From Octopus vulgaris (taxonomy: Eukaryota), in the NCBI GenBank assembly GCA_951406725.2, contig OX597830.1, positions 806,001 to 870,000 of the forward strand: DNA of 64,000 nt, read 5' to 3'. The notes beneath the pieces were generated by a model. That model saw only the letters and a program-made list of their open reading frames with translations, ran no database searches and was not told the origin of the DNA. Position numbers and translations under genes: made by a program. Of this stretch, positions 26,817 through 41,000 are shown piece after piece. Numbering within the stretch: position 1 is the first letter of the stretch; the number at the start of each line of letters is the position of its first letter.

Positions 26817-27467
26817 CCTCTCTACTATAGGCATAAGGTCTGAAATTGTGGAGCAGGGTTAAGATGATTACATCGACCCCAGTACGCAACTGGTACTTAT
26901 TTTATCGACCCGGAAAAGATGAAAGTAAAGTCGACTTCGTCGGAATTTGAACTCAGAAGGTAAAGAAAAGCGAAATGCTGCTAACCATTTTGCTCGCCGT
27001 GCTAACGATTCTGCCAACACGCCGCCTTAATAATAATAATTTCAAATTTTTGCCACATGGATAGCTTGTGGGAGGTGGAGATGAGTTGACTAAATCGACC
27101 CCAGTACGCAACTGGTACTTATTTTATCGATACTGAAAAGGATGAAAGGCAAAGTTGACCTCGGCGGAATTAGAACTCAGAGCGTAGAGACAGACGAAAT
27201 ACCACTAAGCATTTTGCCCGGCATGCTAACAATTCTATCAGCTCGCTTAATAATAATAATAATAACTGGAGGCACAGAGCCTGAAATTTAGGGGGAGGGG
27301 ACTAGTCGATTACATCGACCCCAGTGTTTCACTGGTACTTAATTTATAGATCTCGAAAGGATGAAAGGAAAAGTCGACCTCGGCGGAATTTGAACTCAGA
27401 AGGTAGCGACGGACGAAATACCGCTAAACATTTAATCAGCGTGTTAACTACTCTGCCAGCTTGCCTA
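26817..27467 (-). mobile_element. Three head-to-tail SINE family A copies (26817-27028, 27042-27248, 27268-27467) separated by (AAT)n
   Basis: Each has cgaccccagt…actggtact…gatgaaag…gtcgacctcggcggaatttgaactcag…ctgcca. Confidence 0.88.
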
Positions 27468-27473
27468 ATAATG

Positions 27474-27565
<92 letters not shown>

Positions 27566-39757: not shown

Positions 39758-40066
39758 GTATGTATATGTGTGTGTGTGTGTGTGTGAAATAGATAAACGA
39801 CACTGAACTTAGAGGATTGAGCGATTATTTGAAATGGCGATTTCTTAATTTGTACCAATCACAATAATTCCATCATAATTCGGCGATGTGTACAGTGAAG
39901 TAGAAAATGCAGAGACATTGACGAAAGAAGATCAAGAGGCGACTGTAAGTGAATATTGCGACTGTGAATATCATTCATTTGACACACACATATATATAAA
40001 TATGAATGCATACATACATACATGTGTGTGCGTACGCGCATGTGAGTGACTGTATGTATATATATA

Positions 40067-40102
<36 letters not shown>

Positions 40103-40103
<1 letters not shown>

Positions 40104-40290
40104 TTTATTTTAAGCAGCAGAAAATTCCACAAAATCTGTTACTCTGAGTTTCTCGTTGCCGTTCATCAGACAGTTTTTGCTAGAACAGATTTTGTTGAAT
40201 TTTCTGCTGCTTAAAATAAAGCATATTACTCTACCACTGGTATTTGAGTACTCTTTTTTCCACCTTGTTTCACATTTATGTGTTTACTCC

Positions 40291-40292
<2 letters not shown>
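40103..40292. mobile_element. 190-bp inverted pLTR mini-element with hammerhead, inserted in (TA)n
   Basis: 38-bp inverted repeat (40103-40140 / 40184-40221, 1 mismatch) enclosing a hammerhead, with AATAAA in each arm and (TA)n on both sides. Confidence 0.75.
40136..40173 (-). ncRNA. Type-I hammerhead ribozyme
   Basis: Minus strand CTGT-CTGATGA-ACG-GCAA-CGA-GAAA-CTCAGAG-TA-ACAG. It has a perfect CUGAUGA/GAAA core, stem I CTGT/ACAG, GNRA-capped stem II (first pair A-A mismatch), near-palindromic stem III and a GUA site. Confidence 0.8.
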
Positions 40293-40375
<83 letters not shown>

Positions 40376-40410
40376 ATATATATGTGTGGATACATATATA
40401 TGAGTGTATA

Positions 40411-40463
<53 letters not shown>

Positions 40464-40494
40464 ATATATATGTGTGGATACATATATATGAGTG

Positions 40495-40541
<47 letters not shown>

Positions 40542-40708
40542 GTATATATATATATGTATATGTATATATATATATGTATATGTATATATATATATATGTA
40601 TATATATATATGTATATGTATATATATATATGTATATATATATGTATATATATATATGTATATATATATGAGTGTATATATATATATATGTATATATATA
40701 TATGAGTG

Positions 40709-40757
<49 letters not shown>

Positions 40758-40846
40758 GAGTGTATATATATATATATATGTATATATATATGAGTGTATA
40801 TATATATGTATATATATATATGTATATATATATATGTATATATATG

Positions 40847-40895
<49 letters not shown>

Positions 40896-40918
40896 GTATA
40901 TATATATATGTATATATG

Positions 40919-40972
<54 letters not shown>

Positions 40973-41000
40973 TATATATGTGGGTGTGTGTGTGTGTGTG
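40293..41000. repeat. About 700-bp (TA)n/(TATG)n compound microsatellite with higher-order TGAGTG-marked units
   Basis: Direct inspection. tgtgtggatacatatatatgagtg occurs twice. Confidence 0.95.

What the first reader, a model, noticed from the sequence alone, without database searches (positions are those of the whole stretch)
40103..40292. Hammerhead mini-element whose sense arm starts at the predicted self-cleavage site
Seen: a 190-bp island in (TA)n holds an intact-core hammerhead on the - strand (40136-40173) inside a 38-bp inverted repeat. On the - strand the sequence after the GUA site is ACAGATTTTG…AATAAAG. The + strand arm (from about 40184-40185) begins with that same post-cleavage sequence and continues about 70 bp past AATAAA. 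Known: PLEs carry pLTR hammerheads and often form inverted pLTRs. Inference: the insertion was copied from a ribozyme-cleaved RNA. It may belong to a coding-free, retrozyme-like family that targets TA repeats.
Basis: partly seen in the sequence, partly recalled or inferred. Interest (0 to 1): 0.75.

Follow-up and report, generated by a model that had tools for sequence, protein, structure and literature searches.

The report
Head-to-head stub of a Penelope retroelement
This is a short, back-to-back double copy of the end of a protein-coding Penelope-like jumping gene that has thousands of such stubs in this genome; its start at the ribozyme cut site is likely a coincidence, but sister stubs stop sharply 46-47 letters further upstream, which likely marks where the element's RNA begins.

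Summary
The anatomy is real (hammerhead 40136-40173 on -, 38-bp inverted repeat, 72-nt tail, TA flanks); the reading mostly fails. The island is a 5'-truncated, head-to-head insertion of an autonomous 3.35-kb Hydra-clade Penelope-like element found in the same genome (tail arm 110/110 identical; RT plus GIY-YIG ORF). The family gives 9,331 exact arm-end matches. Sense arms do not pile up at the cleavage site: 0 of 106 sampled arms start at +1..-2, and of 62 junctions like this one, 3 join there against 19 and 16 at two other AAC sites. The junction has a 2-nt microhomology. Short same-strand ribozyme pairs in the loci held are separate TA-split insertions, not retrozyme arrays. The scan has noted such pairs before, in this genome and others. 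What may be new: arms end abruptly at -43..-47 (32 of 51; genome-wide 31% loss over 2 nt versus 1.7% in a control), while arms passing that point a second time never stop there (0 of 55) and decay smoothly up to 1.9 units. This suggests two templates, a linear RNA starting near -47 and an endless, possibly ribozyme-made circular one. Untested at RNA level.

The parts
40053..40102 (.). (TA)n target, left flank
40103..40185 (-). Short arm: pLTR copy from -46 to +36 (numbered from the first base after GUA), ending at AATAAAG next to TA
   Evidence: (97.7% to parent L091 incl. TA)
40136..40173 (-). Type I minimal hammerhead (stem I CUGU/ACAG, CUGAUGA, weak stem II, GAAA, GUA); identical to the parent's; predicted locked in the long hairpin (forced ribozyme fold 13.8 kcal/mol above MFE)
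40141..40149 (-). Palindromic stem III ACUCAGAGU, predicted dimer interface (self-duplex -7.4 kcal/mol)
40139..40140 (-). Predicted cleavage site (between 40140 and 40139)
   Evidence: sequence; activity untested
40184..40185 (.). Head-to-head junction: 2-nt microhomology AA shared by both arms
40184..40293 (+). Long (tail) arm: -1 to +108, 110 of 110 bases identical to the parent
40215..40220 (+). AATAAA, possible poly(A) signal, directly before the short-arm end site (+37)
   Evidence: sequence; function untested
40222..40293 (+). 72-nt PLE tail: in the parent the 5' leader between pLTR and ORF
40227..40250 (+). Bulged hairpin 1 (5-bp stem ending CUC/GAG, UUU bulge), 5 nt behind the +37 end site; its twin lies 6 nt behind the +109 end site in the parent and is absent from this stub
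   Evidence: z -1.7 and -2.1, weak singly; lead from e1-8673755
40294..40979 (.). (TA)n-rich target, right flank

Best explanation
The island is a short, 5'-truncated, head-to-head insertion of an autonomous Hydra-clade Penelope-like retrotransposon in a TA microsatellite, likely made when the element's enzyme started two DNA copies of uncleaved element RNA from opposite target strands and their ends were joined through a 2-letter overlap. Shown: the parent (3,354-nt unit, one ORF with RT and C-terminal GIY-YIG), the two fixed arm ends (+37 and +109/+111), variable junctions, no pile-up at the cleavage site, a sharp stop at -43..-47. Inferred: (1) the GIY-YIG domain nicks both strands of (TA)n; (2) RT starts internally at +37 and +109, probably positioned by the twin bulged hairpins; (3) here the +37 copy ran to -46, the likely 5' end of the RNA (about 0.5 that this is the transcription start; it sits on an initiator-like CCA(+1)TT, motif recalled); (4) its terminal AA annealed to the partner copy at one of several AAC sites, this time the one at the cleavage site, and the overhang was trimmed. 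The ribozyme in this copy is predicted to be trapped in the 38-bp hairpin and the + arm has no core, so the copy is probably dead.
For: Parent in L091/L092/L093/L180. Same two-arm anatomy at every length from 49 nt to over 5 kb. 9,331 exact arm-end matches. Census of 98 of the first 100 listed matches: 0 of 106 arms at +1..-2, 32 of 51 at risk end at -43..-47, 0 of 19 at -48..-60. Genome-wide nested counts 3,367 (-46), 2,727 (-47), 2,323 (-48), 1,904 (-52) versus control 1,596 to 1,569 over 2 nt. 62 like junctions: 3 at -1, 19 at -36, 16 at -24, 24 other. Either arm may reach further upstream (tail 9, short 16, within 4 nt 11, of 36 pairs), as two separately made copies would give. Arms agree at subfamily sites (115 of 116, 104 of 107; shuffled means 61, 53). 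Frangieh 2024 (PMC11167929) shows both strands cut and extended, two internal RT starts defining the tail, and uncleaved RNA as the dominant substrate.
Against: No RNA 5'-end data exist here, so the -47 end is inferred from DNA only. Ten of 106 breakpoints were corrected by hand and the bins were chosen after seeing the data; 12 arms at -44 are helped by the CTAG palindrome; a further 18% loss from -48 to -52 shows the edge is not one base (partly subfamily variants and TA-flank mimicry). Arm concordance and 8 rare variants shared by both arms (against 73 on one arm) also fit one arm being copied from the other. One second-pass arm (L301) also starts at -1. Full-length copies never end at -47 (0 of 55), so a single linear RNA starting there cannot be the only template.
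Confidence: 0.8

Rival explanations
1. One reading: this tail arm was copied from the 3' product of ribozyme cleavage.
For: The arm starts within 1 nt of the predicted cut; core intact; 3 of 62 like junctions and L301 also start there.
Against: 0 of 106 sampled arms; the site is the least used of the three AAC classes counted (3 vs 19 vs 16; a fourth AAC at -11 had 0); one of the 3 is a short arm, 2 of 3 carry a U4C core variant; AA overlap explains the junction.
Confidence: 0.07
2. A non-autonomous, retrozyme- or SINE-like family that copies itself as a unit using the PLE enzyme.
For: Most sampled arms are short (87 of 106 end at -47 or later); only 70 exact tail-to-ORF junctions against thousands of arm ends; animal retrozymes are proposed PLE derivatives (bioRxiv 10.64898/2026.07.22.740005).
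Against: Junctions are copy-specific and recur independently in both subfamilies and on either arm; the 4 same-strand core pairs under 450 nt apart in 238 loci all have a TA run of 22-34 nt between them; stubs lack the second hairpin behind +109.
Confidence: 0.06
3. Self-priming: one DNA copy (or an antisense template, as proposed in PMC3846280) folds back and makes the second arm.
For: Palindromic junctions (perfect CTAG fold-backs in L007, L121, L123, L145); arm concordance and 8 shared rare variants; complex multi-switch junctions.
Against: Simple fold-back of a tail-started copy needs the tail arm to reach furthest upstream; the short arm does so in 16 of 36 pairs and in the window copy. 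Both arms have their own fixed 3' end behind a similar hairpin.
Confidence: 0.15
4. The -47 edge is not a transcription start but a nuclease-trimmed RNA end or an early RT barrier at the base of the folded ribozyme domain, or reflects processing at the splice-acceptor-like TTCCATTCTAG|C.
For: The extended stem I fold begins at -45/-46; in D. virilis the intron end maps to the 5' end of helix I (PMC4209133).
Against: An RT moving 3' to 5' meets a stem at its 3' side, not at -47; arms include TTCTAG, so they are not spliced at -41; a sequence-set barrier should also stop second-pass arms (0 of 55).
Confidence: 0.3

Closest known systems
Hydra clade of C-terminal EN+ Penelope-like elements (Craig et al. 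2021, PMC8557442; passages, section 11 and supplement parts seen), e.g. Hydra-1_Obim, Hydra-2_Amil
   Same: Single ORF, RWK, DKT, CxCX5C linker, CxxC and CxH in the EN, 3' sense hammerhead, (TA)n targets. Hydra-2_Amil's listed ribozyme has the same stem I (ctgt/acag), core and actc-n-gagt-a stem III. N-terminal and RT motifs match Hydra-1_Obim by eye.
   Different: A separate family: different hammerhead from Hydra-1_Obim, 3.35-kb unit (Hydra generally <3 kb), clear pLTR and tail, thousands of arms. No alignment score or tree against the published proteins was computed.
PLE insertion architecture: partial tandem, inverted 5'-truncated copy, tail at one end (PMC8557442 Fig. 2 legend; PMC3846280 passages); opposite-strand min-HHR pairs 100-700 bp apart ascribed to truncated PLEs (PMC4209133 passages)
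   Same: Head-to-head arms, tail on one arm, microhomology or palindrome at the junction, palindromic stem III.
   Different: Tail is 72 nt rather than 30-40; the sharp first-pass stop at -47 and its absence on the second pass were not found in the passages read.
Poseidon_Ac in vitro mechanism (Frangieh 2024, PMC11167929; parts 1-2 of 4 read)
   Same: Two internal RT start sites bounding the tail, both target strands primed, AT-rich target, cleavage not required, no RNA reads ending at the cut.
   Different: Different clade; there the hammerhead overlaps the ORF start, here it lies 190 nt upstream of it.
Animal non-LTR retrozymes (PMC7229834 passages; bioRxiv 10.64898/2026.07.22.740005, part 1 of 5)
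   Same: Type I hammerhead, no coding in the short copies, PLE connection.
   Different: Retrozymes are head-to-tail repeats of 150-450 bp with a ribozyme per unit and give circular RNAs; this copy is one inverted pair with one locked ribozyme.

Membership tests
Hydra-clade PLE (parent element) | Single ORF, RT with C-terminal GIY-YIG | tested here: met
   727-codon open stretch in L091 and L180 with FDIIDFYPSI, GAYDG, YRDD, GVVY...YTG; assigned by motifs, since Pfam and PDB searches gave no usable hit
Hydra-clade PLE (parent element) | RWK motif and DKT in place of DKG | tested here: met
   RWK at 53, DKT at 129, no DKG
Hydra-clade PLE (parent element) | CxCX5C linker | tested here: met
   CNCKNESSC in 3 of 6 copies read (L093, both L180 arms); CNF variant in L091, L092, L182
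Hydra-clade PLE (parent element) | No CCHH in the EN; CxxC and CxH near the end | tested here: met
   No cysteine inside the GVVY..YTG core; CRLC at 683, CRH at 711
Hydra-clade PLE (parent element) | N-terminal GxKF/Y not conserved | tested here: inconclusive
   A GNKY string occurs at 67; equivalence to the canonical motif not aligned
Hydra-clade PLE (parent element) | Canonical hammerhead and (TA)n insertion | tested here: met
Hydra-clade PLE (parent element) | Placement in the Hydra clade on an RT tree | not tested
   Published proteins were seen only as supplement text
PLE inverted pLTR + tail insertion | Head-to-head 5'-truncated arms, tail on one arm, derived from an autonomous element | tested here: met
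Non-LTR retrozyme | Head-to-tail tandem units of 150-450 bp, each with a type I hammerhead | tested here: not met
   Window copy is an inverted pair; in 238 loci the 4 same-strand core pairs under 450 nt apart are split by TA runs; no genome-wide array search was run
Non-LTR retrozyme | Non-autonomous, copied as a fixed unit | tested here: not met
   Variable junctions, recurring independently in both subfamilies
Non-LTR retrozyme | Self-cleavage and circular RNA in vivo | not testable with these tools
   Only assembled contigs of runs guessed to be RNA were offered
Copy of ribozyme-cleaved RNA | 5' ends piled at the cleavage site | tested here: not met
   0 of 106; 3 of 62; 1 of 67 second-pass arms

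The most novel reading that the evidence does not exclude
The breakpoint map records a two-template life cycle for Penelope-like elements. A linear mRNA starts at -47, just enough to hold the whole hammerhead, and ends after AATAAA in the second pLTR; RT starting at its 5' hairpins runs off the end and leaves the thousands of stubs (a PLE 'strong stop'). The two hammerheads of that mRNA pair through their palindromic stem III, cut out a 3,354-nt unit that is circularised, and RT running round this circle makes the long copies and, by overshooting one turn, the partial tandem that is called the pLTR. This fits 0 of 55 second-pass stops at -47, 1 of 67 at the cut site, smooth exponential decay at the same rate on both passes (0.0012 vs 0.0010-0.0011 per nt), ends spread to -2,874 without an inherited upstream junction, and no same-strand tandem among 70 full junctions. 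Circular PLE RNA has been proposed (PMC6765202); long read-through multimers or repeated template jumps fit the same data.
Probability: 0.3. Interest if true: 0.72.

Novelty: new member of a known kind. Interest (0 to 1): 0.38.

Why it matters
As a single locus it is ordinary: a dead stub of a known class of retroelement, and the proposed cleavage-site signature fails its test. That bears on two open questions for Penelope-like elements, what the hammerhead is for and how the partial-tandem pLTR is regenerated, and names the exact RNA ends to look for.

Tried and rejected
Rfam: no match at gathering score in the window; the 33 weak matches around the locus are hairpin or TA artefacts, none a hammerhead. 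Pfam and PDB sequence searches of the parent protein: nothing usable. Sequencing runs: no RNA holder listed on record; contigs of runs guessed to be RNA cover all 30 bins of the unit in 4 of 4 runs but cannot show starts, ends or levels; a second lay on the pLTR (4 runs, 2 samples, 1 study) showed no pile of ends and no adapter-linked end at -47 or 0; this is no evidence either way. My first idea, that the family had a fixed short template with no long form, was rejected: the apparent upstream sequence was the partner arm. Identity with Hydra-1_Obim rejected (different ribozyme and protein). A simple model with one linear mRNA as the only template was rejected. Inherited master junctions upstream of long copies were looked for and not seen (some ends lie within a few nt of each other but have different flanks). 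Look-up of earlier findings by sequence gave nothing. [quoted passage not shown]

Full report
Numbering. Position 0 is the first base after the GUA triplet. On the window's - strand, position = 40139 - rel; on the + arm, position = 40185 + rel.

Observation. All described parts are present. The inverted repeat is 38 bp with one mismatch and dominates folding: -52.6 kcal/mol, z -10.9. The hammerhead has an intact core, a 4-bp stem I extendable by a second helix, a 2-3 bp stem II and a palindromic stem III. Forcing the ribozyme fold costs 4.7 kcal/mol in the isolated arm and 13.8 kcal/mol once the second arm is included, so a - strand transcript of this copy is predicted to be locked; the + arm lacks the core. 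The junction reads ...GCTAG-AA-CAG...; AA (40184-40185) belongs to both arms, so the + arm may start at -1, 0 or +1.

It is a large family with an autonomous parent. A DNA search of G000 gave 98 matches from 40 scored candidates; an arm-end 21-mer has 9,331 exact matches, control 0. A pattern for tails not followed by A gave 550 matches; 6 of the 30 loci read continued into a shared sequence leading to an ORF. L091 holds (TA)n - inverted arm from +41 to -1954 - partial pLTR from -134 - hammerhead - tail - ORF - 3' UTR - hammerhead - tail - (TA)n, unit 3,354 nt. The window's tail arm is 110/110 identical to it. The ORF (727 codons open in L091 and L180; likely start at MELYP because 69 of 70 junction copies lack L091's upstream ATG) has RWK, DKT, RT motifs, a CxCX5C linker in 3 of 6 copies read, GIY-YIG-like GVVY..YTG, CxxC and CxH. 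These are the Hydra-clade features of Craig et al. 2021 (PMC8557442, section 11). It resembles but is not Hydra-1_Obim (supplement text, by eye). Pfam and PDB gave no usable hit. Inverted 5'-truncated copies with a tail at one end are standard PLE anatomy (PMC8557442; PMC3846280), and opposite-strand hammerhead pairs were already ascribed to truncated PLEs (PMC4209133).

Test of the cleavage-site claim. I took 98 of the first 100 listed arm-end matches on C1 (the last two were viewed but not added: one ends near -48 in a TA flank, one near +17). They gave 69 rows (37 short two-arm pairs, 32 single arms, some being the two ends of one long insertion) and 106 arms; partner arms ending inside the tail or near +28 were not counted, and 10 breakpoints were corrected by hand after viewing. 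None of 106 starts at +1..-2 (upper 95% bound 2.8%). As a matched control I read all 62 genome matches in which one arm ends at -46 followed by C, as in the window: the partner starts at the AAC at -36 in 19, at -24 in 16, at -1 in 3 (window, L002, L027), elsewhere in 24 (the script's printed labels -37 and -25 are -36 and -24). The same junction classes occur in both core variants and on either arm, so they arise repeatedly and are not inherited. Frangieh et al. likewise found uncleaved RNA to be the main substrate and no RNA reads ending at the cut (PMC11167929).

Test of the retrozyme claim. Retrozymes are head-to-tail units of 150-450 bp, each with a ribozyme (PMC7229834; bioRxiv 10.64898/2026.07.22.740005). 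In the 238 loci then held, 4 same-strand core pairs lay under 450 nt apart, each split by a TA run of 22-34 nt; no genome-wide array search was made. TA targeting is confirmed (41 of 49 tail arms followed by (CT)ATAT; the short-arm end was fixed by the search pattern and is no independent test).

How the pair is likely made. Arms end at two fixed sites, +37 and +109/+111. Following a lead from an earlier scan note (e1-8673755) I folded the sequence behind each: both have a 5-bp stem ending CUC/GAG, an inner stem and a UUU bulge, 5-6 nt behind the end site (z -1.7 and -2.1, weak singly; L091 has a variant that loses the inner stem). This fits two internal RT starts on opposite target strands (PMC11167929). 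In 36 pairs the tail arm reaches further in 9, the short arm in 16, within 4 nt in 11, which simple fold-back of one copy does not give. The arms agree at subfamily sites (115 of 116 at +28, 104 of 107 at +4; 117 pairs from all loci held, a biased mix), so they come from the same RNA or source; 8 rare variants are in both arms, 73 in one. Stubs lack the second hairpin, so their own transcripts would not be expected to template tail arms (inference).

The unexpected pattern. Arm 5' ends pile up at -43..-47: 32 of 51 arms at risk, then 0 of 19 at -48..-60, in both arm types (12 of 19 tail, 20 of 32 short; bins chosen after the fact). Genome-wide nested patterns agree: 3,367 reach -46, 2,727 reach -47, 2,323 reach -48, 1,904 reach -52, a 31% loss over 2 nt against 1.7% for a 2-nt extension at -92. 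Position -47 is the A of CCATT, which resembles an initiator (consensus recalled, not from a call); D. virilis Penelope has an internal pLTR promoter with Inr and DPE (PMC2377424 passages). All 70 exact tail-to-ORF junctions were then read: 67 measurable, 3 ending inside the tail. The 55 ends decay exponentially (mean 863 nt, KS p 0.34) at 0.0012 per nt, close to the first-pass estimate of 0.0010-0.0011 from exact counts, reach -2,874, share no upstream junction, and no two of the 70 junctions are same-strand neighbours within 20 kb (absence of two-unit copies has probability 0.25 under that decay, so it is weak). This argues against one linear mRNA as sole template and for two: an RNA ending at about -47 and an effectively endless one. 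A ribozyme-made circle is the simplest endless template and has been proposed (PMC6765202); long read-through multimers or repeated template jumps are not excluded. No RNA data here can decide: only contigs of runs guessed to be RNA were offered.

Papers seen: PMC8557442 passages, section 11, supplement searches and part 2; PMC11167929 parts 1-2 of 4; bioRxiv 2026.07.22.740005 part 1 of 5 (supplements closed); PMC2377424, PMC3846280, PMC4209133, PMC7229834, PMC6765202 passages only. The host looks like an octopod by its size and repeats; that is my recall, not a tool result.

Verdict. Observation confirmed; cleaved-template and retrozyme readings not supported; new family of a known kind, already noted in kind by this scan. 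Interest 0.38, resting on the breakpoint map and not on this locus.

Noticed in passing
L338-L344 (G000 C4, C8, C10, C14, C20, C21, C29): 7 of 67 second-pass arms end at +27..+38; 4 of them have their 3' end at +36..+41, so they are almost exactly one unit long. Could be RT meeting its own start on a circle, or an AT-rich joining hot spot.
   Followed up: partly
L091:7910-7920 (-), window 40180-40185: TTCCATTCTAG|C just upstream of stem I looks like a 3' splice acceptor; in D. virilis the intron ends at helix I. No spliced joint there in the contigs laid.
   Followed up: partly
Family-wide: Subfamilies differ in the ribozyme: CUGA versus CCGA core (U4C) and stem II 3' strand CGA/CGG/CGT/CGC.
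   Followed up: partly
L091:7871, run X5: One contig has a 22-nt loose end that I recall as a template-switch adapter, joined at -2 in the antisense direction. Single observation.
   Followed up: no
L094:758-1804 (-): A 349-codon open stretch with a YVDD motif of an unrelated non-LTR element beside a rearranged copy; L094 itself has an internally deleted tandem with cores 799 nt apart.
   Followed up: no
window 26866-27483: 219-bp unit in 2.8 tandem copies followed by (TAA)n, likely another interspersed repeat.
   Followed up: no
Family-wide: Thousands of near-perfect hairpins of 40 bp to several kb would form double-stranded RNA in host transcripts (possible editing or small-RNA substrates); differences in the contigs laid cannot be told from copy variation.
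   Followed up: no
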